A stretch of DNA of 57,372 bases from Macrostomum lignano (taxonomy: Eukaryota). The DNA lies in assembly GCA_002269645.1 (NCBI GenBank), contig NIVC01004161.1, forward strand, positions 1 to 57,372, read 5' to 3'. The notes under the pieces are model-generated. The model did not search any database and was not told the DNA's origin. It saw only the letters and a program-made list of their open reading frames with translations. A program made the translations under genes and the position numbers. Below are positions 40,287 to 56,913 of the stretch, piece by piece. Numbering within the stretch: the first letter of the stretch is position 1; each line of letters starts with the position of its first letter.

Positions 40287-40760
40287 CACTACTGTAAGTA
40301 AAATCATGCTTTGTATTTAAATCCATTAAAAAGAGTTAATTTTTTACAAATAAACTTACTTTACTTGACGACGCTTTCGACCTCTGGGCCTTAAAAGCAG
40401 GAAGAGAAAGTGTCTGAATAAAGCATTTCAAAGCTTAAAGTGTAAGTCAAAGGTAAATTCAATGCGCTCATTTAGCCAGGCACTGTAGAGTTTTGATGCT
40501 TTGTTATACTTTGCAACAGAAATGCACAGTTTCGCAATAAGCGCACAAGGACCAGTGAAATAACTCGTGCAGAGGTCCTTGTAACAACAATAGACGTAGG
40601 TTTCATATCAATATAGTACAAGGAAATCAAATCAAGTCAATCAAGACAATTATTTCTTACATTTTATCCTCCAATTTTAGCACCAGAATCCTTTAGGATG
40701 GAAATCTGATTGAAAGCGAACCAAAAACGGAAAATCTTGCAACTTTTCCGAGCATATTTA

Positions 40761-40852
40761 AGTAGTATACGTTTTTTTGACACAAAGCCGATTTCCTTAT
40801 GGCGAAATACATAGTAAGTACAGGCCCAAAAAAATGGCAGAGTCCGAAATTT
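40761..40852 (+). repeat. Left terminal inverted repeat
   Basis: Reverse complement of 55981-56072 with one mismatch at 40845. Confidence 0.95.
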
Positions 40853-40932
40853 CATGTGCACGCAGTCTGAAATTCCATGTGCACGCAGTCTGAAATTCCA
40901 TGTGCACGCAGTCTGAAATTCCAAGTGCACGC
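40841..40932. repeat. 4 x 23-bp subterminal tandem repeat (AGTCTGAAATTCCATGTGCACGC)
   Basis: Visible; the right end has only one related copy. Confidence 0.9.
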
Positions 40933-41652
40933 TAAATATCTTTTACGCAACGTGATTATTCAGACGAATTGCATATCCACCTGTCCAAAATACAAGTAAC
41001 CGATTCTAGCAATGGTGACACAAACACACTTCAAAGGATTCCATTCAAGACAAATTTACTCCAAAGCTATTCACACATTTCAAGTGTTATTGAAATATTG
41101 AAAACTTGTGAATATTATCACCCTTTTGAAGAAAGATAGTAAATGATCTATTCTTGAGTGCCTATAGAATTTTTGCACCAACTTGAGCAGATGGTTTACA
41201 GATACTATGTCAACAACTGCGTCAACATGCTTCTTCTTTATACTATATATATATACGAACACACTGACACAGAAAATATTAAATAACTTAAACCAAGTTT
41301 ACATTATACTACTTGTTCAACTATACTTACATCTTAAGTGAAATGAAGCGATCACGTCAGCAGGAATTGGCCGAGCGCTATGTTAAACAAGGTAAGATAA
41401 TCACCTACTCTAGTTCAGTTTTCTTTTTTAGATTGACTGTTCGCTATAGTTTAGTTTCTAGATTGATTGTTGGTTCGGTTTCTGTTTAGACCGATCCTCT
41501 GTTTGTTCAGTCTCTAGATTGATTGTCTGCTAGTTCGGTTTCTGTTTAGACTAATACTCTGCTAGTTCAGAATTTCTAGATTGATTGTCTGCTAGTTCGG
41601 TTTCTGTTTAGACTGATTCTCTGCTAGTTCAGTTTCTATATACATTGTATAC

Positions 41653-42204
41653 ATGCACCTATACCAAATTTCCCTCATCTTATCCATTATTATAGCATTC
41701 AAGAATGGTTTCTTCACGCGGCCACCTCCAGATCAGTGCAAACGCATTTGCCACGACACCACCACATCCAATTCTGCTGCAAGAGCATCATATTCTACAT
41801 CTCTCGCCAGAGTAACCTCGATTCATGTCGAGAGACAGACAACTGAGCTAGATCGCATTTACACAAGAACTGATGTTATTCAGTCAATTAGGCAGCAATC
41901 GAACCCACGACCAACTGACCAACTGCAGTATGCACCACCACCACCATCACCAACCAGCTACAATGACCCAACAAAGCAAACTTGCAGTAAGCCTACAAGT
42001 ACCAAACCAACGACAGCAACTGAAACACCATCATCATCAATTGCTATTTCTACCCAAGTTCAACCGCTGCTAAACTCGCCAATTATTGTACAGAAGGACA
42101 TCAAGTCTGTAAAAGTCTCTCAAATGAGCACAGGCTTCTACCAAGTAGAATTAGCAAAGACCTGTAATACAACTCAAGTATTTGAATATTGGGACCTATC
42201 TTAA
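41653..42204 (+). CDS. Polinton accessory ORF, Thr/Ser/Pro-rich, unknown function
   Basis: 183-codon ATG-initiated ORF in AT-rich surroundings; the hydrophobic N-terminus may instead be sequence upstream of an acceptor at 41695. Confidence 0.45.
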   Translation: MHLYQISLILSIIIAFKNGFFTRPPPDQCKRICHDTTTSNSAARASYSTSLARVTSIHVERQTTELDRIYTRTDVIQSIRQQSNPRPTDQLQYAPPPPSPTSYNDPTKQTCSKPTSTKPTTATETPSSSIAISTQVQPLLNSPIIVQKDIKSVKVSQMSTGFYQVELAKTCNTTQVFEYWDLS

Positions 42205-42459
42205 AAAGACATTTTTTCTATCTCTTCATAAAATTTTGCCAGCAATGTGTCCAAGTAATTGCTCTTTTAGTATATATCAAACAAGTCTGTAATCAATAAT
42301 ATAATCTCTATAAATTCATTATTCTAAAAAATTCTTTCAATTTTATTCACCATTCATTGAAATTATTTAATTCAACATAAAGTCAATATCTTGTACAGTC
42401 ATCATTAAACAAAAATTATTAATCCATGCAAATAATTTTTTTTTCATACGTTTCTTTAG

Positions 42460-43700
42460 CCATGGTCTGGCTTTTGCCTCAACAGTATGATTTAGCTGTG
42501 GTCCAGCTTTTGCCTCAACAGTATGATTTAGCTGTGGTCCAGCTTTTGCCTCAACAGTATGATTTAGCTGTGGTCCAGCTTTTGCCTCAACAGTATGATT
42601 TAGCTGTGGTCTGGCTTTTGCCTCAACAGTATGATTTAGCTGTGGTCCAGCTTTTGCCTCAACAGTATGATTTAGCTGTGGTCCAGCTTTTGCCTCAACA
42701 GTATGATTTAGCTGTGGTCCAGCTTTTGCCTCAACAGTATGATTTAGCTGTGGTCCAGCTTTTGCCTCAACAGTATGATTTAGCTGTGGTCCAGCTTTTG
42801 CCTCAACAGTATGATTTAGCTGTGGTCCAGCTTTTGCCTCAACAGTATGATTTAGCTGTGGTCCAGCTTTTGCCTCAACAGTATGATTTAGCTGTGGTCC
42901 AGCTTTTGCCTCAACAGTATGATTTAGCTGTGGTCCAGCTTTTGCCTCAACAGTATGATTTAGCTGTGGTCCAGCTTTTGCCTCAACAGTATGATTTAGC
43001 TGTGGTCCAGCTTTTGCCTCAACAGTATGATTTAGCTGTGGTCCAGCTTTTGCCTCAACAGTATGATTTAGCTGTGGTCCAGCTTTTGCCTCAACAGTTT
43101 TTAGCCGTGGTCCGGCTTTTTTGCCTCAGCAGTATGATTTAGCTGTGGTCTAGCTTAAAACTGCATCAACAGTGATTTAGCTATAGTCCAGGCTTAACTA
43201 CCTCAACGATGATTTAGCTATAGTCAAGGCTTAACTGTCTCAACAGTAATTTTAGCTGTTGTCCAGACTTAACTGCCTCAACAGTGATTTTAGCTGTGGT
43301 CCAGGCAACTGTCTCAACAGGGATTTAGCTGTAGTCCGATTAGCTTAACTGTCCAGTTATTTAGCTGTGAGCCAAGCAGCAGCACCCGTCTCAACAGTGA
43401 GAATTAGCTATGGTCAGCTTTACCTCAACTGTGATTTGGCTGCTGTGGTCTAGCATAACTGACTCAACAGTAATTTTAGCTGTAGTCGTCCAGCTTAACC
43501 ACCCGTCCAGTTTTATAACCATGGTCCAGCTTAACCACCGTCTCAACGTACAGCGATTTAGTCGTGGTCCAGCTTAACCGTCTCAACGTACAGTGATTTA
43601 GCCATGGGTCTAGTAGCAATTAACCGTATCAATAGTGATTTAGCCGTGGTCCAGCTTAACTGTCTCAACACAGTAATTTAGCTTAGTCCAAACAGCATTT
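42460..43700. repeat. 36-bp tandem array inside the Polinton, homogeneous to about 43100 and then degenerate
   Basis: (CTTTTGCCTCAACAGTATGATTTAGCTGTGGTCCAG)n. Confidence 0.9.
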
Positions 43701-44393
43701 GTGTGTCAACTGCACTGACTGCATGCGGTTATAGCAGCGGCAGTCATTATAGTCCCAACAAGCTGCGCGTCGCAGCATGATAGTGTAACTCTATATAGCT
43801 TCTGCTCAATATAGGACTGCAAAAGCTGAGTTACAACTATACCTTTTTCTGTTTGAAAAGTAACACTCTATATATAGGTTACTCAAGCAATCTCTTGTCA
43901 CCGTGCGAGCTAAAAAATTCCAACATGCAAGCAAAACTTTCAATAAATTAATTTCATAGCACCGCGTGCAGCTTATTTTTACTCTAAAATCCAAGATTGC
44001 TAATTTTTCAAGTCGCAAAATATTTTAATTACATTCTACTTGAGAACAAAACCAATCTAATGAAGCAGCAACCAGCAGTCTTCTTATTAAACGCTTGCCA
44101 TCGTGTTACTCTTGCAAATTTATAACTAGTGTGCCTAAGATTCATTAATTTTATTTTATAAAATATCAACCTACATTTGCGTAAAATTAGACCTAATCAT
44201 GCAACCCACCCTAGAAACTTATGCCACCTTTGGCACGCAACAATGTCTTAATCAGCACGCAACAATTAAATTTGTTTACTAGTTCACAAACAGCATGCAA
44301 TGCTTGCTATAAATACAAGACCCGAAATGGTCAATTTTTCATGAGCTCAATCATTACAGCAAAAGAAATACTATATTCAATTGCTTGTAAGAC

Positions 44394-45592
44394 ATGGCAG
44401 CTTGCATCAAGACGGAGTCAATTGTACGCTCCGACTCGAGTCCGATTTTTTACGTTGGAGAGCAGTCTACAACCACGACTGGTTCGTCCTGCCAGTTTCG
44501 ATCTATTGCGTGGAAACCATCAATCGAGTGTACAAAATGGTACCCAATTATATTGCAAACCAAGGCTCCAATGGAGCTTTTTCGTGGAATCGCAGAAAGG
44601 CCAGAGCTCGATCATCCGTCTTGCAGACATGACTCTCGCGACGCAGTAAGTGTCCAATTTCATCCAGACAGCTGCGATAAGGAACTCTTCCACTCTCTCC
44701 GGTGAGCACCATATTAAATTTATACAATTAATTTTAGGAAACTATATTCATAATTTATATAATGTTTTGCAGTCAAGTCGAAAAAGGTCTATCGGTCAAG
44801 TTGAACGAGATTCAAGATGCTCGACCCTTGGCACGACTAACAAAACCAGCTCATCAGCATGCTAACGACGTCCTCGAGTTTGTGCCTCAACAATGGCTGG
44901 CTATAAAGCCTGCTTACCCTTGTGCCACAATCAGGATCAGCAACGATCATCCACACGGGAAGGAGGTGTCCATTTCCGATTTCAAAGGTGTCAGCGGTAC
45001 CTACCAAATGACAGTGCAAGCAACGAGCTTGTATTGTCCAAAAGGCTGCCTCGTCTGGCGCATTACATTCGCTGTGCGCTCTCTGACACTCATAGAATCT
45101 TCCGACAACATGTTGCAGCGCCTCGACATGTTCAAGGGAGTGCTTGCACACCTACCCGCGACCAAGTCAGCAATTAGAAGCAGGAGTCCGTCCCCAACAT
45201 CTACCTGTGAGCAAGAAGAAGCAAATGAACAAAGCCTGCAGAATTCAAGCCAGGTGACACCTGCCAAGTCACCTGCAAAGCGTCGGTCTACCACCACCGT
45301 ATCGAAGAAGTCGACTACATCGAATGCAGCGCCAGCCTCTATTGAACCGCCGCCTAAAAAGCAAGTTCGAAAACGCAGCGGTGCAAAACAGCAAAACAAT
45401 TCTGCCGAAGCTGGTGCAGATGGCACAGACTGGGTGGAGGCTCCACCAGCAAAGATCTTGGTGAGTACACCTGCCTCTGGAACCAGGGTAGCGTCCAAGG
45501 AGACAGCATTTTTAAAGCGTGCTGCTGCGGACGCTACTACAGCTAGCGTGTCTTCATCGGACGACTCGTACAGCAGCTCTGATGATGAGTAA
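44394..45592 (+). CDS. Polinton spliced gene, 375 aa, unknown (SSB/OB-fold candidate with a disordered tail and acidic C-end)
   Basis: Exon 44394-44701, intron 44702-44772 (gtgagc...ttttgcag), exon 44773-45592; the phase 2 junction joins ORFs 44394 and 44762. Confidence 0.65.
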
Positions 45593-45802
45593 CAAAATTT
45601 TTGACTAATTTTATCCAAGTTTTAACTAACTTATTCCACTATATTTATCAAATTTTTGGCTAGGGAAATATTATTTTTTAGGGAAAAGCTCAAAACATTT
45701 TTTGCTACTCCTTGTACGCTAACCAGGTTTTGTAATTTAATATTAGAATTTACGATAGTATAGTCATGTTTAACTTTTCTTATTATTTATTTTCCGTTTT
45801 AG

Positions 45803-46360
45803 CGACTTGTCCTATTAATAGTTACTGCGAGTCTGAAGCTGCACCCGTTTGAAAAATTTGATTTAAAGCAGACCAAACAGAAGCTACAGACCAGAAACCG
45901 GTTTTGCAAACTATTCCTAAGCCGACCAACAATGCTAAAGACAATTTATTCAAATGCTAAAATCCAACTTTATCCAGCAGGAAAACTAACTATATATGGC
46001 TGTAAATCAAATTCTCAGATAGTCTCAGTTTTACGATTTATCAACGACACTATTAATTGTGTAGATTTTGATTCAGTAAAAATTCAGAGCAGTACCTATG
46101 TCGGCTTTATTGGTCATCTTTGGCCAAAATTCGGTTTCTCTAGTCTAAAAAGATATGCAGGCTACTATTCGAATTATCTGGTTGGATACGATGCAGAAAA
46201 TTTCCCACAAGCAGTTTCTGTTAGATCAGCATCAAAACCAAGGCTTTTTTGTAACATATTTTTTTCGAAAAAGTTTGTTATTATGGGCGTTCAAAACACT
46301 CATGAATTGAATAATATTCTTAACCATGTCAAGGATTTTTTAATCTCTGTTAATAACTAA
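45803..46360 (+). CDS. TATA-box-binding protein (TBP)-like protein encoded by the Polinton
   Basis: Two-repeat TBP-core pattern: LIVTASLK..FDLK, QLYPAGKLTIYGCKS (cf. LIFxSGKMVCTGAKS), VKIQS (cf. FKIQN), YDAENFPQAV (cf. YEPELFPGL), NIFFSKKFVIMGVQ (cf. LIFVSGKVVLTGAK). The frame is open 43 codons upstream of the ORF-track ATG, back to a ttttag acceptor at 45802. Confidence 0.75.
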   Translation, partial: RLVLLIVTASLKLHPFEKFDLKQTKQKLQTRNRFCKLFLSRPTMLKTIYSNAKIQLYPAGKLTIYGCKSNSQIVSVLRFINDTINCVDFDSVKIQSSTYVGFIGHLWPKFGFSSLKRYAGYYSNYLVGYDAENFPQAVSVRSASKPRLFCNIFFSKKFVIMGVQNTHELNNILNHVKDFLISVNN

Positions 46361-46583
46361 ACTTAACAAGTAAACAATTGCTGTCAAATCGCAGTTGCGA
46401 TGCATTCTTTTACAAACATTTTGTCTTTTTTTATTTATTTACCAATTGTTTTCTCTAATAGTAAACGTGTCAGCTATACCTATAACTAACCAAATCATCA
46501 TTTTTCTTACAGCCGCAAATGACAAACCGGATCATCTATTAATATTATGCTCGATACGCTCGTTGTCGAGCTAGGTGCACACA

Positions 46584-47318
46584 ATGCCGCGTGCACAATG
46601 CCAAATCTGCAGAAAAAAGTTCAGTAATCAAGCCGAGCTGCATGCTCACTCGCATGGTGCTTGTTTTTCACCGCAACGATTACTGACCGGATCGCTGCAA
46701 AACCTGATCGAAAACCCACCAGATGGGTGGTCCATCGCTTTGCGCGAGTCAGCTCATCGTGGTCGGGTAAATTTTGTCGAATTTACTCCCACTCTTGAAC
46801 AACAAGGCAACAGCTCTGGCGAGTTACTTCCTGGCGAGTTGATTGCGTCTTTAAGAGAACCAATATTTAAAATATTGGAAAAAATTGGCTCACCCAGTTT
46901 ATTAATAAGAGTCTGCTTTCACTTGAAAGTGACACTATTTCGACCGAAAACAGCAGCAGACGACAACGATGGCTCGAGCAGCGAAGAGATCATTTCGGTC
47001 TATTTTAATACCAACATTGCGACAATATCATTTGATGAGACGATTGCAAACAGTGACATGCTGTTATCTCCCGAGGCCTACAATGACTGGTTCGCACGCG
47101 TTATTAATCAGTTGTTAATAAAAATTGACAATTTTCAATCTCGAGGTAGTAATTGGCAATATAGAGCAATCGAGCAGCTAGACTTGATGCTCTGCGTTTA
47201 TCGCAAAAGCCATGCAAGCACACTGTCAACAAATACGTCCCACGGTGGTGTGGGGGCGGGCGGCGGCAGTGGTGGTGGTGGCGGCGGTGGTGGTGGTGGT
47301 GGTGGCGGCGGTGGTGGT

Positions 47319-47350
<32 letters not shown>

Positions 47351-47681
47351 GCGCGGGGAGTCCGGTCCAGTCCGGTCCGGTCCAGTCCGGTCCGGTCTGG
47401 TTAAGCAGCAATCGTTTAAAGTTCCAGTCTCAATCGGTCGCAAAGCTGGAGCAGTACTGCTTCTAAAGCCGCACAGAGCAGTTTAAAGCATCAAGACTAT
47501 TTAAGAGTCTTACACAAGCGACAACTTGTGTTTTCGCGCATGCAGTCCATTCGTTCTCGAAAACAGAAAGTTTTTTTTGATGCAACAAAGAAAACTTGCA
47601 CTAAGCTTCTTCGATACGAAGCGATCCTGGACAAGTTCAATTAATTCGCTACCCTTTGGACACTGGCACTTGGCTAATTAA
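46584..47681 (+). pseudogene. polB: Protein-primed DNA polymerase B remnant: N-terminal zinc finger and GS(G/N)W domain fused to the extreme C-terminus; catalytic core deleted
   Basis: CQICRKKF..L..H zinc finger and IDNFQSRGSNWQY..I..L typical of Polinton PolB N-regions. After about 47460, in other frames, SKAAQSSLKHQDYLRVL..MQSIRSRKQKVF/LMQQRKLALSFFDTKR...SLPFGHW* matches the Polinton PolB C-terminus. Confidence 0.75.
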
Positions 47682-47973
47682 TTAACAATATGCTCTGATC
47701 TCTTTTGTTGTACAAAGTAATAGCATGCTATAGAAGACTGTAACCCATCATTAATTTTTTCATTGATCATTATTTACAATAAATAAATGATACCGGCATT
47801 CGTTTAAATTATAATTTTAGCACTTTTTTGTGTTTAATTATTTGAAAAAGTATATTTTTTATAGTTAGATTCTCAAGACTAAGCTTGTGTTTGTAGTAGA
47901 CGTAAATGTAGTGCTATCGTTCATGTTTCAAGAAAAAAAACTTTTTTTTAAACTTTCAGCTACAAGAATCGAC

Positions 47974-48456
47974 ATGAATCCCGAGCAGCAGCAGCAACAA
48001 CAACTAACTGATCGTAAGCTTTTAGTTGAACGTCTATACGATTCGGCAACGATTCCGACCCGAAAAACTGTCGGGTCGATCGGGTATGATCTTTGCGCTG
48101 GCGTCGATGGTACCATTCCGGCCTACGAGTCCCGGAGTGTGCGAACCGGACTCAAAATTCGCTTACCGCCTGGTACCTATGGCAGGATAGCGGGACGTTC
48201 CAGCATGGCTCTGCACAGCTTATTTGTTGGCGGTGGCGTAATCGACCCCGACTATACTGGTGAAATCTGTATAGTCTTGTTTAATTACAGTCCGGAAGAC
48301 TTTGAGTACTATGCCGGGCTCAGTATTGCACAACTGGTTCTGGAGCAGGCCGTGCTTGCTTCAGTCTATGTGACTGAAGCAGACAATTCGATTCGGATGA
48401 TTGAGCCGCCGACCAAGCGGCGCGGCTTTGGCGGCTTTGGCAGCACTGGCCAATAA
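47974..48456 (+). CDS. dut: Trimeric dUTPase
   Basis: All five motifs: GYDL, GRSS, GVIDPDYTGEI, IAQL, RGFGGFGSTG. Confidence 0.95.
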   Translation: MNPEQQQQQQLTDRKLLVERLYDSATIPTRKTVGSIGYDLCAGVDGTIPAYESRSVRTGLKIRLPPGTYGRIAGRSSMALHSLFVGGGVIDPDYTGEICIVLFNYSPEDFEYYAGLSIAQLVLEQAVLASVYVTEADNSIRMIEPPTKRRGFGGFGSTGQ

Positions 48457-48547
48457 GTATAATAATAATAATAAACTGATTTTTTTCTTTGGTGATTGGT
48501 GCACTATGCGAGAGCTTTGTAAATACTATAAGCAATTTTAAAAATTT

Positions 48548-48991
48548 ATGCCTAAAATATATGTTGTAAAAATGTCTCCAGCGAAAGATCGAGGTTTTAA
48601 AAAGAAAAAGAAGAGCATTCGTAAAAAGAAGAAATCTATTAGAAAGATTAATAAAAAGCAACAAGGTTATGGTGTCGTAAATTGGTTAATTAATCATTTA
48701 CCATTTGAAGCACATTTACCCGGCGGATATCAGTTTTGTGGTCCAGGTACGCAACTGCAAGCTAGGCTAGCAAAAGGACAACGAGGAATTAATCGGCTTG
48801 ACAATTTGTGCATGCTTCACGACGTGGCCTATGATAAAAATTCTGACGTGCAAGAGAGGTTAAAAGCTGATAAGCTATTAGAATCTGGTGCACGAGAGAT
48901 TGCCCACGATCCGTCTACTGGTTGGAAAGAAAAACTAGCTGCGAAGTTGGTTACCAAGGTTATGCAAGTTAAGCAACGCTTTGGTGCTTGA
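48548..48991 (+). CDS. Parvovirus VP1-type phospholipase A2 domain protein (PLA2X-like) with a Lys-rich N-terminus
   Basis: PGGYQFCGPGT (Ca-binding loop) and DNLCMLHDVAY (HD catalytic helix). Confidence 0.9.
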   Translation: MPKIYVVKMSPAKDRGFKKKKKSIRKKKKSIRKINKKQQGYGVVNWLINHLPFEAHLPGGYQFCGPGTQLQARLAKGQRGINRLDNLCMLHDVAYDKNSDVQERLKADKLLESGAREIAHDPSTGWKEKLAAKLVTKVMQVKQRFGA

Positions 48992-48993
48992 AA

Positions 48994-49683
48994 ATGCAGC
49001 AGCCATACAATATGCAACTAGCTCACGATTCTACATTTATTATTGCTGGACCTTCAAACTCGGGTAAAACTGAATGGACGTTGCGTTTGTTGACTGAACG
49101 AAAAGAATTATTTGATAAAAAACCGTGCCGTCTTGTTTGGTGCCATGGATCAAGTTTGAAACCAGACGATCAACAACGAATTAGAACATGCTGGCAAAAA
49201 AGCGGTCTTGACCCTATTGTTTTTGTACCCGAATTCACACCACAGATGATTAATCGTTTTTTACCACACGATTTGGTTGTTGTTGACGACTTGCAAAGCG
49301 AGATTGCTAAGTTGCCAGAATTTACTAGTATGTTTACAAAGCATGCGCATCATATCCCTTTGACTTGTCTGTACCTTTGTCAAGGTCTTTTTAACAAGTC
49401 TGATCCAGAAGCACGCATGCGAAGTTTATCAGCTAGTTATATTTGTCTAACTCGTAGTGTGCGCGATCGAACCACAGTTGAACATCTCGGTCGACAAATG
49501 TATCCGCGTAATAGTAGGTTTCTAGTGAATGTGTATGAAGACGCAACAAATAACAAACCTTTTTCATATTTATTCATTGACCTGCGGCAAGTGACACCAG
49601 ATTTTTTACGATTGAGAACAGGAATATTTTCTGGTGATGAACAAGTTGTCTATACTCGTGAATGTGATGCAAAGTTTGTGTAA
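48994..49683 (+). CDS. FtsK/A32-like DNA-packaging ATPase
   Basis: Walker A GPSNSGKT, Walker B LVVVDD, FTKHAHH...LCQGLF. Confidence 0.9.
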   Translation: MQQPYNMQLAHDSTFIIAGPSNSGKTEWTLRLLTERKELFDKKPCRLVWCHGSSLKPDDQQRIRTCWQKSGLDPIVFVPEFTPQMINRFLPHDLVVVDDLQSEIAKLPEFTSMFTKHAHHIPLTCLYLCQGLFNKSDPEARMRSLSASYICLTRSVRDRTTVEHLGRQMYPRNSRFLVNVYEDATNNKPFSYLFIDLRQVTPDFLRLRTGIFSGDEQVVYTRECDAKFV

Positions 49684-49740
49684 TATTATTATAAGCAAAT
49701 TATAAACTGTTGTCAATATTAGTTTGTGTTTTATTTCAAA

Positions 49741-50730
49741 ATGAGTTTTTACGTTTTTTTGCCGTCAAACGATATCAGTTACGAAACCAACTCGCCTAAT
49801 GAATTTCGAGTGCGACTAACTGAACCAATAAATTTATTGAACGGATTCTTCGAGGTTGCACTAGTTGAATTACTGTGCCATGGAGCAATTACGACGCCAA
49901 ATGCTCATCGTGAGCGTCGATTTGAAGTTCCATATTTTGCGGACATTGACTCAATAATACGATTAAAGAAAAACTATTGGGGTCGTGTTTGGGCAGAGGC
50001 AGACTTGGATGCTTACGTTTCCTGGCAACCGTCTGGTACAGATGAAAAATTTGCCTGGCTTTTACGAAATTCAGGCGAAAAAACTATTGGATTAGAACTA
50101 CCAGTTACATTTATGGACGCTTTCAAATTTGACTCTTGGAAGAAACTTTCTGGACTTGTCTCGGAAAAATTATCAAAACCTGCCGCTGGTAGTGTACAAC
50201 CACCGGATGGTTCATACTTGGATTTGATAAAAAGTCTCGACAATACTCTAGCGCTAGTACCTGAGAACTATTATGTTTTTTATTGTGTTCTATCGCCTGG
50301 TGAAGCTATACGACTTGTTTCGCATGGAGACTATCTTCGAAAAACGGAAGGAGAAGTGTACATCAAAGTACACCAATATTGGTTGAGAAATCGTGTTTGG
50401 CGCATTAACAAAACCTACTTGGATGCTGTGCTACCTTCTCCGATGCCTAGTAAAACGGTTTACATGTACTGTTACACAGATATAATCGAGTATCAAGCAG
50501 TGGGAAGTACATCAGTACCGTTGCTTCGAGTTGTGGAACTCCAACAAAAGAAAAACGGAGAACTTATACGCGATAGCAGTGCATTGCAAACACCCTACTA
50601 CTTGAAAACAAATCGACAACAAATTCACGAGATTTCGATTCGACTATCGGACCAGCGCGGAAAACCGTTTAATTTTGATCCGGGAGCACACGTTGTTGTC
50701 GTACTGCATTTTAAACATAGGTCGGACTAA
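49741..50730 (+). CDS. Minor capsid protein (penton)
   Basis: Starts MSFYVFLPSN..YETNSPNEFRVRL..PI.L...FEVALVE and ends VYMYCYTDIIEYQ.VG....PLLRVV...I.IRLSDQRG.P..F...V.VVLHFK, the Polinton penton signature. Confidence 0.85.
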   Translation: MSFYVFLPSNDISYETNSPNEFRVRLTEPINLLNGFFEVALVELLCHGAITTPNAHRERRFEVPYFADIDSIIRLKKNYWGRVWAEADLDAYVSWQPSGTDEKFAWLLRNSGEKTIGLELPVTFMDAFKFDSWKKLSGLVSEKLSKPAAGSVQPPDGSYLDLIKSLDNTLALVPENYYVFYCVLSPGEAIRLVSHGDYLRKTEGEVYIKVHQYWLRNRVWRINKTYLDAVLPSPMPSKTVYMYCYTDIIEYQAVGSTSVPLLRVVELQQKKNGELIRDSSALQTPYYLKTNRQQIHEISIRLSDQRGKPFNFDPGAHVVVVLHFKHRSD

Positions 50731-50786
50731 TTTATAAGCAAAGATTAATTGTGTAATAGAAAATTTTGTGAATTTGTTTTGTAAGA

Positions 50787-51215
50787 ATGAGCGAACTAAC
50801 AGAAAAAGGAAAACAAAATGCTCGCTCATTGTGTCAGTGTGCTTTTTTACTACAAATTGTTTATCGGCTAAAGCATCCAAAGCAGAGAAAAAGTTTTTTA
50901 CAAACACTTTCAGAGTCGGAGATACGATGTCTAGTAGACTTTCTGTTTAATATTATTAGTGGACGTATTAAAATTAGTAACTGTAACAAAAGACGACTTG
51001 AGAAGCATCGCAGATATATACGCCAGCTTTTGGAACAGAAGACTCCAATTACTGCAAAAAGGAAAATACTTGTCCAACACGGAGGATTTTTACCTTTTTT
51101 GGCTCCAATTATTGCCGCTCTACCTGCTATAAGCACTGCGCTTGGGATAACGTCTGGAGTAGTTGGTACCGCCGCGGGAGCAGCGAATTTAATACGATCA
51201 ATTCAACGAAAGTAG
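50787..51215 (+). CDS. Conserved Polinton virion protein with an adenovirus pX-like C-terminal hydrophobic segment
   Basis: Basic helical domain followed by QHGGFLPFLAPIIAALPAI, similar to adenovirus pX GG(F/I)LPxLIPxIAAAIGA. Confidence 0.7.
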   Translation: MSELTEKGKQNARSLCQCAFLLQIVYRLKHPKQRKSFLQTLSESEIRCLVDFLFNIISGRIKISNCNKRRLEKHRRYIRQLLEQKTPITAKRKILVQHGGFLPFLAPIIAALPAISTALGITSGVVGTAAGAANLIRSIQRK

Positions 51216-51225
51216 TAGGAATATA

Positions 51226-51915
51226 ATGCGAACTAACGAGAGTAGTAGTTTTCAACGAATGTATCTAGTACCTGAATCTGTGTATCAATCTGCATGTCAA
51301 GGTGCAGAGCAAGGATCGTCACCAACTGCTGAGACACCTCGAAAAACTGAAGTTTTAGACGCACCGCAAGATGCTCTGGCAAAAAATATGGTGGAAATGA
51401 GAGACCAAATGGATAACTTGGACAAGGAAATGGAAAAGGAGCCAAATTACACAGCTCAATTGAAACGAAGCAGATTGGAAGACAAACTTTTAAAATTGCG
51501 CAAAGTCTATCGCACTGGAGACGAGGACAATCTGTCACTTGTTCGCAAAGGGACTACTGTAAGAAGTTCATATGCCAGCGAATCAAGGGAAATTCCTAAA
51601 GTTTTTTTACCACGTTTCGAAGCTCTCGCTCAAAACCTATTTTCGGACATGGACAAGAATGCAGAACCAATGCTGGCTAATTTGACTGATGCCGAGATAC
51701 AAGATCTCATGGAATATGTTGTTCGAGACAGACCGCTTAAGCGACACGAGACTCAACCGCCTAGTGGACTAAAAACATTTTTAGACTTTCTTCGAAAACG
51801 TGGAATCGCAGCAAACCAAATCGGGCGTCATGTACGAAACGAGCTAATGTCTGCTCCAAAAACTGTTGCAAAGGAGGATCTTAGTCTGTTTGAAAATTAT
51901 CAAACACTGAATTAA
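51226..51915 (+). CDS. Polinton hypothetical protein
   Basis: 229-aa ORF with an N-terminal RMYLVP motif and a coiled coil, tightly packed between core genes. Confidence 0.7.
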   Translation: MRTNESSSFQRMYLVPESVYQSACQGAEQGSSPTAETPRKTEVLDAPQDALAKNMVEMRDQMDNLDKEMEKEPNYTAQLKRSRLEDKLLKLRKVYRTGDEDNLSLVRKGTTVRSSYASESREIPKVFLPRFEALAQNLFSDMDKNAEPMLANLTDAEIQDLMEYVVRDRPLKRHETQPPSGLKTFLDFLRKRGIAANQIGRHVRNELMSAPKTVAKEDLSLFENYQTLN

Positions 51916-52027
51916 GTTGTTTTAAAATTACAGATTACGTTTTAACAAAATTGATTCGAGCACTATAAGCTTTTTAAAAAGGTTAATTTTTTGTTTATGA
52001 AAAATATATAGTTTAATAAGACAAACC

Positions 52028-52216
52028 ATGTCATCTATCTTCCAAAAACTTTTGATTCGTCTCTGTGAGTTTTTTTGCATAAAATCTGAATGTGTGCCGT
52101 TTCTGGGAAAGGAGCACAACGAGGATACTGACGGAGATTCGATCGAGGCTTCGTTCTTTTGTTGCAACTGTCAAACGACTAGCATCAATCTAACTGATGA
52201 TGAAGCGAGTGCGTAA
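52028..52216 (+). CDS. Small Cys-rich ORF overlapping the integrase start
   Basis: 62-aa ATG ORF filling the gap between genes; no recognised motif. Confidence 0.3.
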   Translation: MSSIFQKLLIRLCEFFCIKSECVPFLGKEHNEDTDGDSIEASFFCCNCQTTSINLTDDEASA

Positions 52217-53357
52217 GGAAATTGAAGAATTTTTGACGGATGCTTTTTTTAACTTGAACAGGCCTACTTCATTTAGTGGTAACAAGACTATACTTGTTCG
52301 TGAAGTACGTAAAAAGTTTCCACAGATTACGAACAAAGTTGCAAAGCGCGAAGTTGATAATTGGGTGCGATCAACAAATGAGCATCATTTATTTCGAAAA
52401 ACACGACGAAACTTTCCAACTCCAAAAATTAGTGTGCCACCAGTTGCAAAGTTTCAGTTTCAAATCGATTTGGCAGATTTACCTCAATACAAGACGGAAA
52501 ATCGAGGTTATCGTTACATACTTGTTCTTATCGACTGTTTTACTAGAGTTGTACGACTAAGACCATTGCGTACAAAGAAGCCTTCAGAAGTTAGTCAAGT
52601 ATTACTAGAGATTTTTCGAAGTGGTTTTAAGCCTGTTTATTTACAAGGTGATGCTGGTATGGAGTTTCTCGGAAGAGCTACACGTCAAATGCTGAAACAG
52701 GAAGGAGTTCGATTTTTTGTTAGCCAAAGCAATTACAAGGCAAGCATGGCTGAACGATTTATCCGCTCGTTAAAGGAACGTCTATTACGATACTTTCGAG
52801 CAAAAAATTTACCTCGATGGTTTGACATTTTACCGCAATTGGAAGATAATTTCAACTCTAGTCCTCATCGATCCTTGAGTGGAGAAACACCAAAACGGGT
52901 AGAGACAGACCCGCATTTACAAGGAATTTTGTGGGACAAAATGTTTGCGAAGTCGTACACTAAAAAGAATGAGAATAAATTTAAAGTTGGTGATTGGGTT
53001 AGAATTACACGACGTCGAGGAACATTTGAAAAAGGATACACTACGACTTGGAGTAATTCAAAATATCGCATTCATCGTGTACACTTGACAGACCCGCCAA
53101 TGTACGAATTAGTGGACCCTGAAGATGGATTTGAAGTGCTGAAAGGAAGGTTTAACCAAGCGGAACTAATGTTGGTAAACGAGACAGATGAAACACCTAA
53201 TGAAATTGAAAAAGTTATTGAAACTGATCGAGCGAAAAATGGAAGTCGTCTGTATCTAGTAAAATGGAAAGGTATGCCAATCTCAAGAAGTCAGTGGTTA
53301 AACGAAAATGATCTTGACGCAAAGACTGCTAAACTATTTTCTAAAGTGTATAAGTAA
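52197..53357 (+). CDS. int: Retroviral-like (rve) integrase with a C-terminal chromodomain
   Basis: DDE: FQIDLADL, LQGDAGMEF, KASMAERFIRSLK. Chromodomain EIEKVI...YLVKWKG......WLNENDL. Confidence 0.95.
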   Translation: MMKRVRKEIEEFLTDAFFNLNRPTSFSGNKTILVREVRKKFPQITNKVAKREVDNWVRSTNEHHLFRKTRRNFPTPKISVPPVAKFQFQIDLADLPQYKTENRGYRYILVLIDCFTRVVRLRPLRTKKPSEVSQVLLEIFRSGFKPVYLQGDAGMEFLGRATRQMLKQEGVRFFVSQSNYKASMAERFIRSLKERLLRYFRAKNLPRWFDILPQLEDNFNSSPHRSLSGETPKRVETDPHLQGILWDKMFAKSYTKKNENKFKVGDWVRITRRRGTFEKGYTTTWSNSKYRIHRVHLTDPPMYELVDPEDGFEVLKGRFNQAELMLVNETDETPNEIEKVIETDRAKNGSRLYLVKWKGMPISRSQWLNENDLDAKTAKLFSKVYK

Positions 53358-53398
53358 CACATGAATTGGGATTGCATGACGAAGAGAAGACTGTTGAA

Positions 53399-53857
53399 AT
53401 GGATCCTATTTTTGCTTTTTATTCTGGTCCGAATAGATCTGCTGAAGGTGGAGGTGGATATGGCATTCCTGTTTACGAAGGTTACGGTTTTTTGTCAAAT
53501 TTGGCGGACAGATTGGTGTATCCTGTACTACGCAACGCAAAGAAAGATTTCTTGGATCGTGGTCTGGAGTATTTGAAAAGTGCGACAGCAAAAATTGGTA
53601 TGGGTCGGAAGCGTCACTTGGACACAGAATCGAGCGAAGAGATGTTTAATACAACTGCAGTTTCGAGACCAAAGCGAAGGAAAAGAACCAGTGGAGTGGC
53701 TATAAGCTTAGGAAAGAAGAAACGGCAAAAGAAACGACGAACAAGACAGTGTGGAAAGGGACGCGTGAACAAAAGAAAACGCAAGAAGACCGGTGGTATA
53801 GGAAAACGTCGAACTGCTACTGCAAGCAAGAAACTTTTTAGTCTGTTTGAAAAGTAG
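53399..53857 (+). CDS. Arg/Lys-rich putative DNA-condensing core protein
   Basis: GGGGYG..YEGYGF N-terminus, amphipathic helix, then a very basic tail (KRRKR, KKKRQKKRR). Confidence 0.7.
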   Translation: MDPIFAFYSGPNRSAEGGGGYGIPVYEGYGFLSNLADRLVYPVLRNAKKDFLDRGLEYLKSATAKIGMGRKRHLDTESSEEMFNTTAVSRPKRRKRTSGVAISLGKKKRQKKRRTRQCGKGRVNKRKRKKTGGIGKRRTATASKKLFSLFEK

Positions 53858-53858
53858 C

Positions 53859-55180
53859 ATGAACCATTTGCTTGGACCTGATATTGCTGCTCTTAAAAGT
53901 GAATTGTCGCTATTTGATCAAAGTCCTGTTCAGTTTAGTGTTTTGGATAATCGATATACTAACATTCAACCGCAACATGGTATTACAAAAGGATCACCTA
54001 TCGAATTTGAAGTTGTGCCTGCAGGCGATTTGTATTTGGATCTACAAGAAACTGTGCTCACGGTATGCTTCAGCGTTAGTGATAGTGAAGGTGAACCTAT
54101 AGATGCAACGAAAAATTTTGTTTGTTTGAATAATTTGGTTATTGGAACATTGTTTGAGGACGTTCAATTTACTATTGGCGATACTGTAGTTGAAGGTGGT
54201 AGTTTTATGTATCCATACAAGGCTATGCTTCTTACATTACTGGAATATGGACATACAGCTCAGAAGGCTGGTTTACTGCCGTGGGGGTTTTACAAGGATA
54301 CAGCTGGTAAAATGAATGCAACAAGTGAAAACGATGGACGAACAAAGAGGCAGGCGCTCATTGCTAACAATAGGCGGTGCACTGTATCGGGGCCGTTATT
54401 CTTGGATTTGTTTCGTCAGCCTCGGTATCTACTATCAAAGACACCACTACGGATCAAGCTCATACCGGCAAAAAGTAAATTTGTCCTGAGCGGGTCAACA
54501 TTAGAAGCTGGTGCGGTTTTAAAAGACTATGAGATCAAGTTTTTGCGTGCAGAACTACGATTGCGGTTTGTTCAACCCTCGCCGAGTGTTATCAGTGCAC
54601 ATGCTCATGGACTTAAAAGTCACAATGCATTATATCCGCACCGAAGTCTAAGCCTTGGTACGTTTACTATACCCGAGGATCGTCTAGCCATACGCATGAA
54701 AATTTGTTTCCTAGTGGGGTACCACGGCTTTTATTGATGGCAATCGTAAGCAACAAGGCATTCAATGGAAGCATGGACACAAATCCGTTCAACTTTGAGC
54801 ATGCAAATGTGAGCAGCATTGGTGTGTTTGTGAATGGAGACTCGGTACCATCGCGTCCGCTGCAGACAAACTTTGGAGATGATTGTGTGACAGAGTATAA
54901 TTTTTTGCTACAACAGCTTGGAATCTATCTACAGGGACGAGATATTGGATTTAATATGCTGGATTACGCCAATGGTTACTCAATTTTTGCATTCAGTCTT
55001 GGAAGTGAACCTGGTGTCGGACGGGGAGTGCAACTGTATAAGGAAGGAAATGTAAAACTAGAGTTACGCTTCAATGCTGCAACTAGTACCGTGTACAACG
55101 TCATATTTGGAGGTATATTTGACAAGCAACTGCAACTGACTGAACTTCGCGACATTGTTCCTGGCACAGTATGGAAGTAA
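53859..55180 (+). CDS. Major capsid protein (double jelly-roll hexon) with a 1-nt frameshift at about 54675
   Basis: KSELSLFDQSPVQFS, PIEFEV....LYLDLQET, MYPYKA, GPLFLDLFRQPRYLL. The second frame ENLFPSGVPRLL..V.N.AFNGS...NPFNF joins if one G is added in cccgaggatcg. Confidence 0.9.
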
Positions 55181-55734
55181 TTGATTCTATCCTAGATCGT
55201 GGTGTAACAGATCGCTTCCTTCGCAATGTTGTATCGAAATTGTGCGCACATTTTTTAAATGTTGTATTTCTTGGTGTTTTTCCTCAAAACTTTGTTGGTG
55301 GACTTAGACGCTTACCTTTAGACGGTAAAGACTATTTTTTTATCGTTAATACTGACGTCTCCAACCTGCCCGGAAAACATTGGGTATGCGTTTGGGTTTA
55401 TGGTCATCGAGCAGGTCGCGGTAGCAAACGACTTGGTGAATATTTTGATTCTCTTGGTCTAGTACCATTGCCAAGAATAGCAAAATGGCTAGGAAAAGAA
55501 TGTGGAAATTCGAAAAATTGGTGTTATAGTCGCTTTGCTATCCAAGACCCACAGAGTGGAAGTTGTGGATTTTGGGTAATTTTTTATATTTTTCATAAGT
55601 TGACTACCAGAGGAAACCTAGAGTGTTTTATTCGAAGCGTTTTTAAACGGAATATAATTCGCACTGGTTCGTTTCGATACTTGTATGCTAAATTACGCAA
55701 TTTTGTTTTACGAGTGCTGCCTCAATATTTGTAA
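55171..55734 (+). CDS. Adenain-like cysteine protease (maturation protease)
   Basis: VNTD....PGKHWV (His), YFDSLG (Asp), IQDPQSGSCGFW (Gln/Cys). Confidence 0.92.
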   Translation: MEVIDSILDRGVTDRFLRNVVSKLCAHFLNVVFLGVFPQNFVGGLRRLPLDGKDYFFIVNTDVSNLPGKHWVCVWVYGHRAGRGSKRLGEYFDSLGLVPLPRIAKWLGKECGNSKNWCYSRFAIQDPQSGSCGFWVIFYIFHKLTTRGNLECFIRSVFKRNIIRTGSFRYLYAKLRNFVLRVLPQYL

Positions 55735-55980
55735 ACTCGCTAATTTGTGCGTCAAATTGTGTTTGTATCTAGTTGAAATATACAATACTGCTTGAAAAGA
55801 AGAATTTAAATGCGTTAAGTTATACGCGAAATAAGCTTTGTGTCAAATTGAATTTTGGTTGGGCTTGTAATTAGCTGCATTCATTGCGGATAGAATTTAG
55901 GTGGATAGACAGGTGTTTGCGTAAAAGTGATTCAGCTAATTGGTTAATTCATTGCGTAAAAGCTAGTTTGCGTGCACGGC

Positions 55981-56072
55981 AAATTTCAGACTCTGCCATT
56001 TTTTTGGGCCTGTACTTACTATGTATTTCGCCATAAGGAAATCGGCTTTGTGTCAAAAAAACGTATACTACT
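55981..56072 (-). repeat. Right terminal inverted repeat
   Basis: Ends ...GTATACTACT; inverse of 40761-40852. Confidence 0.95.
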
Positions 56073-56913
56073 GAGCCAAACGCACCATTAGACTGCTCTG
56101 GGGCATGAGAATCGGCTGTGTTGTAATCTGCGGCAACCTGCTGGGCGGTGCCATCTTGCTGTTGAGTTCCCGCAGGTGGTGGCAGCTGCTGGGCGGTGCC
56201 GTCTTGCTGTTGAATTCCCGGCAGGTGGTGGCAGCTGCTGGGCGGTGCCGTCTTGCTGTTGAATTCCCGCAGGTGGTGGCAGCTGCTGGGCGGTGCCATC
56301 TTGCTGTTGAGTTCCCGCAGGTGGTGGCAGCTGCTGGGCGGTGCCGTCTTGCTGTTGAGTTCCCGCAGGTGGTGGCAGCTGCTGGGCGGTGCCGTCTTGC
56401 TGTTGAATTCCCGCAGGTGGTGGCAGCTGCTGGCGGTGCCGTCTTGCTGTTGAATTCCCGCAGGTGGTGGCAGCTGCTGGGCGGTGCCGTCTTGCTGTTG
56501 AATTCCCGCAGGTGGTGGCAGCTGCTGGGCGGTGCCATCTTGCTGTTGAATTGCCGCAGGTGGTGGCAGCTGCTGGGCGGTGCCATCTTGCTGTTGAATG
56601 TCCACAGGTGCTGGCTCGCAGATGCCGGGAGGCTGCTCATTAATGATAGCAATGTCGCTGTCCTCAGTCTCCTCACCGGTTGGCACTTCGTACAGTAGGC
56701 TGCCCGGACTGTCCATGCGAATCTGCTTTCTCTGATAACCGGGAAATGTCTAGCCGACTGAGCAGCGAGTGGGCGTTGGAATTGTGGCTGCTGCTGCTGC
56801 TCAACAAAGTCATCATCGCTGTTACAGCCGTCTCTAATTACACCGTTTATTAATTGGCTGAGAGCCTGTCGTGCAGCGGTTTGCTCTCCGGCTATTTGAT
56901 GTGCTTTCTGCAT
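56073..56913 (-). CDS. Hypothetical coding sequence with a 48-bp (QQQDGTAQQLPPPAGI)n repeat, truncated by the Polinton; contains indels
   Basis: ORFs 56068..56913 and 55949..56716 are alternate frames of one GC-rich coding-like tract that runs into the TIR at GAFGS. Confidence 0.45.
56140..56600. repeat. 48-bp tandem repeat
   Basis: (CTTGCTGTTGAATTCCCGCAGGTGGTGGCAGCTGCTGGGCGGTGCCGT)n with single-base indels. Confidence 0.9.

What the first reader, a model, noticed from the sequence alone, without database searches (positions are those of the whole stretch)
40761..56072. TIR-bounded Polinton/adintovirus with an unusual accessory gene set
Seen: 92-bp TIRs 91/92 identical (recent), the full morphogenetic module (hexon, penton, ATPase, adenain), an intact DDE chromo-integrase, plus TBP-like, dUTPase, PLA2 and two unknown genes, all co-oriented. 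Established: Polintons are capsid-encoding self-synthesising elements. The combination of a basal transcription factor, a nucleotide-metabolism enzyme and an entry phospholipase is more typical of larger DNA viruses and suggests a virus-like lineage.
Basis: partly seen in the sequence, partly recalled or inferred. Interest (0 to 1): 0.8.

Follow-up and report, generated by a model that had tools for sequence, protein, structure and literature searches.

The report
Polymerase-less Polinton outnumbering its parent
A virus-like jumping element in a flatworm genome has lost most of its DNA polymerase gene yet sits at 17 separate insertion sites against 2 for the polymerase-bearing form, so it likely borrows the enzyme from such relatives, as defective viruses do; its accessory genes are shared with sister families and are less unusual than first thought.

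Summary
A 3,163-bp deletion removes codons 291-1346 of a 1,411-codon pPolB, leaving the predicted terminal-protein domain. The same junction lies at 30 places in the assembly and 17 sites defined by 6-bp target duplications; the polymerase-bearing form is at 3 places, 2 sites. Short copies differ by 0-31 substitutions in up to 12 kb. Best reading: a defective-interfering-like element that keeps origins, integrase and virion genes and takes pPolB in trans (0.55); rival: integrase-only transposition (0.25). This contig joins halves of two different insertions, its hexon split is likely an assembly error, and the 91/92 TIR mismatch is inherited, not a date. TBP-like, dUTPase and PLA2 genes are syntenic in sister families; PLA2 is a known adintovirus hallmark. 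One 'unknown' pair of ORFs is a single spliced gene resembling giant-virus ssDNA-binding proteins. Host named by database hits: Macrostomum lignano.

The parts
40755..40760 (.). host 6-mer TATTTA: left half of the target duplication of one insertion; its right half is in contig C4469
   Evidence: empty alleles in C690 and C3702 hold one TATTTA and run on into the C4469 right flank
40761..40864 (+). left TIR, begins AGTAGT; first 92 nt identical in the polymerase-bearing form
41343..42204 (+). left-arm gene of unknown function, probably spliced (short first exon, donor-like site at 41392, acceptor-like site near 41695); splice inferred from sequence only
   Evidence: no Pfam family
42470..43337 (.). 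36-bp tandem array, 2 to 20 exact units among copies; the long form has 1.6 kb of other sequence just before it
44394..45592 (+). one spliced gene (GT..AG intron 44702-44772), 375 aa, acidic tail; likely ssDNA-binding protein of the giant-virus type
   Evidence: joint in 3 of 3 runs guessed RNA, 0 of 1 guessed DNA; frame fits; annotated 375-aa protein P0152; Atlas features 0.92-0.95 to NCLDV clusters incl. DUF5871, DUF2738, Pox_I3; single-sequence fold failed
45803..46360 (+). TBP-like protein, two divergent repeats; open frame starts before the first ATG (45932)
   Evidence: PF00352 E=2e-7; weak hits to solved TBPs; alignment with 4 relatives
46584..47486 (+). 5' remnant of pPolB: zinc finger, predicted terminal-protein domain with the invariant G-S-x-W loop (Ser190), Gly linker, then a stop; ends 6 residues before the predicted vOTU catalytic Cys
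   Evidence: domain definition from PMC11161782
47480..47690 (+). deletion junction (3,163 bp missing) and frame-broken 3' remnant of pPolB
47923..48456 (+). dUTPase; part of a block (about 47480-48500) 8-12% diverged from the long form against about 2% elsewhere
   Evidence: PF00692 E=1.5e-29
48548..48991 (+). parvovirus-type PLA2 domain protein
   Evidence: PF08398 E=3e-9; motifs
48994..49683 (+). A32/FtsK-like packaging ATPase
   Evidence: Walker motifs; sister-family protein hits Pox_A32 weakly
49741..50730 (+). probable penton (minor capsid protein); inferred from position and conservation
   Evidence: no Pfam hit
50787..51215 (+). pX-like core protein
   Evidence: PF05829 E=2e-6
51226..51915 (+). 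conserved 229-aa ORF, function unknown
   Evidence: 31-40% identical in sister families
52197..53357 (+). rve integrase with chromodomain, D-D-E present
53399..53857 (+). basic 152-aa ORF, probable DNA-condensing core protein (inferred)
   Evidence: no Pfam hit
53859..55180 (+). hexon (double jelly-roll major capsid protein), split near 54,670 in this contig, likely by an assembly error
55171..55734 (+). adenain-type maturation protease
   Evidence: PF00770 weak; His-Asp-Cys motifs
55969..56072 (-). right TIR, ends ACTACT
56073..56078 (.). host 6-mer GAGCCA: right half of the target duplication of a second insertion; its left half is in contig C2967
   Evidence: empty alleles in C3844 and C2424

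Best explanation
This is a polymerase-deleted Polinton that has inserted at 17 separate sites with 6-bp target duplications and likely multiplies like a defective-interfering virus, with polymerase-bearing relatives likely copying it from its identical terminal origins and its own integrase likely inserting the copies. Shown: one shared 3,163-bp deletion, loss of the protease, exonuclease, endonuclease VII and polymerase parts, TIRs identical to the long form, 17 versus 2 sites, near-identical copies with nested shared variants, open frames for integrase, virion genes and replication accessories in most copies. Inferred: that pPolB is supplied in trans; that the shorter genome (14.7 versus 19.6 kb) out-replicates the helper; that the junction arose by a template switch between two related genomes. 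Untested: whether the remnant terminal protein is made or used, and whether particles form.
For: Junction at 30 of 40 scored places; pPolB middle at 3 of 3 places; 17 paired 6-mers for the short form and 2 for the long form; empty alleles with a single 6-mer at 2 of 2 sites tested; the joint is in contigs of 4 of 4 public runs and its ends are not splice sites. Long-form pPolB is one frame of 1,411 codons with exonuclease and polymerase motifs in 2 of 3 contigs, and its TIRs match. Shared variants at 44301, 47542 and 47046 span several sites, so spread was in rounds or from a diverse pool. The block right of the junction is 8-12% diverged with mostly synonymous changes (11 syn, 5 nonsyn on the short branch), as for a piece from another working relative. 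A few short copies carry small runs of long-form variants. A 2026 preprint reports polB-lacking polintons that stayed mobile beside polB-bearing ones.
Against: No direct evidence of trans supply. The long form differs by about 2-3%, so the direct parent is not in this assembly. Selection on the terminal-protein remnant after the deletion is unresolved: 6 syn/8 nonsyn, 1/3 and 7/5 with three outgroups. Substitutions among short copies look unselected (13 syn, 37 nonsyn or stop, not shared with the long form), as expected after insertion or from sequencing error, and say nothing on use of the genes. The runs of long-form variants may be ancestral states. Contig depth at the junction was only about 2-5 times that of the pPolB middle (the tool warns this is no copy number), less than 17:2. 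In a second Polinton clade of this genome 19 of 20 stretches fetched keep pPolB sequence, so the pattern is not general.
Confidence: 0.55

Rival explanations
1. The element moves without any pPolB: its own rve integrase cuts and pastes it and host repair or replication raises the copy number, as for ordinary DNA transposons.
For: Integrase intact and identical in 17-18 places; exact 6-bp duplications; only 2 helper sites and no direct parent; no shown selection on the terminal-protein remnant.
Against: The two empty alleles read show one 6-mer and no footprint, i.e. pre-insertion states, not excisions (only 2 sites tested). Every sister family with enough sequence fetched keeps a pPolB. The mosaic block at the junction fits recombination between replicating genomes.
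Confidence: 0.25
2. One recent infection by a free virus population, dominated by a deletion variant and helped by a complete virus now absent, seeded the germline many times at once; nothing has moved since.
For: Copies are almost clonal (0-31 substitutions per up to 12 kb, most under 10); direct parent absent; insertions are on one of three homologous loci at both sites tested.
Against: Nested shared variants and repeat-length classes across sites and one older-looking site with a stop in integrase (GCGGTC copies) suggest more than one round; no close free relative found (viral contigs none, metagenome hits 27-38% identity).
Confidence: 0.15
3. The many copies are assembly redundancy or segmental duplications of one dead, deleted insertion.
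For: The assembly is redundant (several contigs per site) and 4 of 12 contigs with both ends read join flanks of different sites, this window among them.
Against: 17 different paired 6-mers with unrelated flanks, empty alleles, junction in 4 of 4 independent runs.
Confidence: 0.03

Closest known systems
Alpha-type adintoviruses / Polintons (Starrett et al., PMC8502044; sections 3.1 and 3.2 read)
   Same: adenain, rve integrase, FtsK-like ATPase, hexon, penton, PLA2, pX-like gene; parent pPolB hits PF03175 and has an OTU-like domain; best Foldseek hit of the N-terminal model is a Drosophila-associated adintovirus 2 protein
   Different: pPolB core deleted in this form; PLA2 and pX are separate genes; adds TBP-like, dUTPase and an SSB-like gene
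polB-lacking polintons of Pieris mannii and others (bioRxiv 10.1101/2025.02.07.637071, sections 12-13 read)
   Same: TIR-flanked, lack polB, still multiplied, polB-bearing relatives in the same species; authors leave the mechanism open
   Different: there polB loss goes with LINE or LTR cargo and few copies are described; here a clean deletion keeps the terminal-protein domain and outnumbers the parent 17 to 2
Split terminal protein / pPolB of adenoviruses and a Stylophora coral polinton (PMC11161782; passages and section on D1 read)
   Same: a terminal-protein domain encoded apart from the polymerase
   Different: there both genes are on one genome; here the polymerase is absent from the element
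Defective-interfering virus genomes and helper-dependent adenovirus genomes (recalled, no call)
   Same: internal deletion of the replicase, termini kept, excess over the complete form
   Different: this one is integrated, keeps all virion genes, and interference or packaging is not shown

Membership tests
Polinton/Maverick | terminal inverted repeats with AGTAGT-type ends | tested here: met
Polinton/Maverick | 6-bp target-site duplication | tested here: met
   met for the family (17 + 2 paired 6-mers, 2 empty sites); not in this contig, which joins two sites
Polinton/Maverick | rve integrase | tested here: met
Polinton/Maverick (autonomous) | complete protein-primed DNA polymerase B | tested here: not met
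   codons 291-1346 absent; met in the long form
Polinton/Maverick | double jelly-roll major capsid protein | tested here: met
   Atlas features 0.98 to DJR-like clusters for a sister copy, recognition value just under the tool's threshold; no solved-structure hit by sequence; not folded
Polinton/Maverick | penton (single jelly-roll) | tested here: inconclusive
   conserved syntenic ORF, no Pfam hit, not folded
Polinton/Maverick | packaging ATPase and maturation protease | tested here: met
Alpha adintovirus | OTU + pfam03175 class PolB | tested here: inconclusive
   parent hits PF03175 at E=3.6e-20; Cys297 and His399 conserved in relatives; no tree against reference PolBs was built
Alpha adintovirus | PLA2X (PLA2 with C-terminal pX domain) | tested here: inconclusive
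   PLA2 and pX-like domains present but in two genes
PRD1/adenovirus-like terminal protein (D1 of pPolB) | four-stranded sheet, two helices, Ser/Tyr in the loop before the last strand | tested here: met
   model pLDDT about 55-85 over most of residues 40-210 shows that order with S-R-G-S in the loop (definition); viral fold hits are adintovirus and MELD PolBs; solved-structure search gave only Z up to 6.4
Defective-interfering genome | depends on and competes with a helper | not testable with these tools
   only the excess over the long form is shown
Infectious virus | particles and free linear genome | not testable with these tools
   only contigs were served, no raw reads

The most novel reading that the evidence does not exclude
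A naturally bipartite Polinton: the deleted element makes its own stand-alone terminal protein, pre-cut at the linker where the viral OTU protease would act, plus SSB, TBP, dUTPase, integrase and virion, and takes only the polymerase from a rarer helper: a defective-interfering virus living in an animal germline, and an adenovirus-like TP/polymerase split spread over two genomes.
Probability: 0.2. Interest if true: 0.8.

Novelty: new variant of a known kind. Interest (0 to 1): 0.55.

Why it matters
How Polintons multiply has not been shown experimentally, and whether pPolB must act in cis is an open question raised for polB-lacking elements in a 2026 preprint. Here one defined deletion, a cognate polymerase-bearing form distinguishable by 3.1 kb of unique sequence, 17 fresh sites with empty alleles and a laboratory flatworm host make the question testable by knock-down and sequencing. 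Surveys that require pPolB next to integrase (as in PMC11414722) would miss or mis-score the commonest form of this family.

Tried and rejected
Deletion as an intron: rejected, ends AA..AA and present in genomic contigs. TIR identity as a date: rejected. Hexon split as real decay or programmed frameshift: unlikely, a minority real allele not excluded. Selection on the terminal-protein remnant: inconclusive. Homologue searches: TBP-like found nothing at E<=0.001 among 36 candidates and nothing in viral contigs; pPolB N-terminus gave 3 hits and 420 unnamed representatives, mostly on the OTU part; hexon found no close relative outside this genome. Fold of the 375-aa protein without alignment failed, pLDDT 34, so no fold search was run; sequence search of solved structures gave nothing; comparing its two exons with each other gave nothing. 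No RNA holder was listed on record; runs guessed RNA also cover host flanks and intergenic parts, so expression level and short-versus-long origin of the spliced contig cannot be told. Internal AGTAGT motifs in the second clade first looked like element ends; the true ends with target duplications lie further out. No tree against reference Polintons was built, as no named reference proteins were on hand. Earlier-findings look-ups returned nothing. Paper search for DUF2738 returned nothing; its and Pox_I3's SSB role is recalled.
Full report
Observation. The inverted repeats are real: 104 nt, 96% complementary, starting AGTAGT, at 40761 and 56072. Between them lie co-oriented ORFs with Pfam hits to TBP, dUTPase, PLA2, pX, rve and chromo and intact-looking catalytic motifs. 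The element is 40% GC against 47% for the rest of the window. Database labels of two proteins of this family name the host as Macrostomum lignano.

The missing polymerase. No ORF in the element holds a pPolB core. The ORF at 46584-47486 matches, at 95%, the start of a 1,411-codon pPolB (PF03175, endonuclease VII) in contigs C1136 and C2373; C84 has the same gene with breaks. The window lacks 3,163 bp at position 47480, codons 291-1346. The joint is in contigs of 4 of 4 public runs laid, and its ends are not splice sites. A model of the first 450 residues (6 sequences, mean pLDDT 58) shows four strands and two helices with an S-R-G-S loop before the last strand, then a disordered Gly linker, then a second domain. 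This fits the terminal-protein and vOTU domains described in PMC11161782 (passages and one section read). The G-S-x-W motif is invariant in 6 of 6 family members aligned and two of them have L-R-G-G at the linker, a ubiquitin-like motif (recalled). The deletion starts 6 residues before the predicted catalytic Cys, so the remnant is the terminal-protein domain plus linker. The 3' remnant is frame-broken.

Copy census. The junction is at 30 of 40 scored places (48 candidates); the pPolB middle at 3 of 3. Reading the 6 bases beside every TIR in the fetched loci gave 17 paired 6-mers for the short form, each with a contig carrying the junction, and 2 for the long form. Two of the 17 lie in repeats, where the duplication is less telling. 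Of 12 contigs with both ends read, 8 have matching 6-mers; 4, this window included, pair with other contigs. For both flanks of the window, empty alleles exist with one 6-mer, and the left flank runs into the right flank of C4469 while the right flank follows the left flank of C2967. The contig therefore joins halves of two insertions, by mis-assembly across near-identical copies or by ectopic recombination; I favour assembly because the complementary halves sit in other contigs. The gene order is not affected.

Age and structure of the spread. Thirty-one short-form contigs differ from the window by 0-31 substitutions over 4-12 kb. Variants shared across sites are nested (44301 in 14 contigs, 47542 in 15, 47046 in 7). 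The 91/92 TIR difference is in 21 of 23 right TIRs, one of them long-form, so it is inherited. Short and long forms differ by about 2% in most genes with dN/dS about 0.17 overall, but by 8-12% from the junction through dUTPase, with mostly synonymous changes on the short branch: the short form is a mosaic and its direct parent is not in the assembly. It also lacks 1.6 kb of the long form's left arm; sizes are 14.7 kb (C4373) against 19.6 kb (C84), about 75%, near the lower packaging limit of adenoviruses (recalled).

Hexon. Split in the window; one frame in 17 of 27 copies examined, the same split in 5, other breaks, an insertion or a contig edge in 5. Contigs of all 4 runs differ from the window at the break at full depth, so the split is likely an assembly error.

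Accessory genes. In the sister elements fetched (C2529, C889, C1680, C1668, C4948; integrase 55-66% identical) dUTPase and PLA2 follow pPolB in 5 of 5 and a TBP-like gene precedes it in 4 of 5; C2529 and C889 add a deoxynucleoside kinase. A second clade (integrase about 32%) has another TBP-like gene and a PC4 domain. PLA2 is a described hallmark of Alpha adintoviruses (PMC8502044, sections 3.1-3.2 read); TBP and dUTPase appear in figure legends for related MELD viruses (passages only). The two 'unknown' ORFs at 44394 and 44762 are one gene: a 71-nt GT..AG intron is joined in 3 of 3 runs guessed RNA and not in the run guessed DNA, the frame fits, and the annotated 375-aa protein scores 0.92-0.95 by features against giant-virus clusters including DUF2738 and Pox_I3, families I recall as ssDNA-binding proteins; the fold could not be confirmed. 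So the set is a real lineage trait, mildly notable, but not particular to this element.

Mechanism. The element keeps both origins (identical to the long form), integrase, virion genes, SSB-like, TBP-like, dUTPase and a terminal-protein remnant, and lacks only the enzyme that can most easily act in trans. I put helper-dependent copying at 0.55, integrase-only movement at 0.25 and a single seeding from a free virus pool at 0.15. Against my reading: nothing shows trans supply directly, selection on the remnant is unresolved with three outgroups, changes among short copies look unselected, the depth ratio in public contigs is lower than 17:2, and a second clade here keeps pPolB sequence in 19 of 20 stretches.

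Literature. bioRxiv 10.1101/2025.02.07.637071 (passages and sections 12-13) reports polB-lacking polintons that stayed mobile and asks how. PMC8097293 (passages) calls the amplification of defective Mavericks in axolotl and tuatara unexplained. PMC3014272 (passages) notes an apparent absence of non-autonomous Polintons in anole. PMC11414722, PMC11131425, 10.1101/2023.08.22.554363 and 10.64898/2026.10.13.758929 were seen as passages only and gave no matching case. Searches found no description of this element or of a deletion that keeps the terminal protein; subscription papers, Repbase and the supplements of these papers were not seen and could hold one.

Verdict. Real, recent, a new variant of a known kind. 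The accessory set scores low; the polymerase-less form that outnumbers its parent, with a testable helper, scores 0.55.

Noticed in passing
window 38126-40155 (-): Host ORFs just left of the insertion include a weak Mab-21 C-terminal hit (E=5e-4), i.e. possibly a cGAS-like receptor gene about 600 bp from the TIR.
   Followed up: partly
L080-L082, L085-L087 (C4827, C2428, C300): A third derivative with a different pPolB deletion (1,153 bp, also in 3 of 4 runs), an internal inversion and loss of integrase and most virion genes; one site, exact 6-bp duplication TATGAT.
   Followed up: partly
L032-L033 (C4072), L091 (C2932): An insertion of about 8.4 kb with its own pPolB-like gene interrupts the hexon at the GATGTG site; similar pPolB hits are numerous in the genome.
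   Followed up: no
L067:979-2262 (C4948): A sister Polinton carries a second, unrelated DJR-like ORF (PF21738 E=1e-4) upstream of pPolB, perhaps a nested element.
   Followed up: no
L073-L074, L112-L143: A second Polinton clade of about 16.8 kb with TBP-like and PC4 genes, over 50 integrase hits, internal AGTAGT motifs around pPolB; one copy (C1580, 212054-220716) ends at such a motif without pPolB.
   Followed up: partly
L063:4132-4800, L066:4592-5251: Deoxynucleoside kinase between TBP-like gene and pPolB in sister families, absent from this family.
   Followed up: partly
alignment A1, linker of L063 and L066: L-R-G-G at the start of the Gly linker between terminal protein and vOTU, like the ubiquitin C-terminus (recalled): a candidate self-cleavage site.
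   Followed up: no
window 12462-14177 and 21567-22029: Nested inverted repeats (74 and 67 nt arms) and a 62-bp tandem with inverted units, probably small non-autonomous elements; many minisatellites across the window.
   Followed up: no
L093-L095 (C3922, C616, C201): Older tandem or rearranged relatives at about 80% identity in which the pPolB match ends near the Gly linker and a left arm follows.
   Followed up: no
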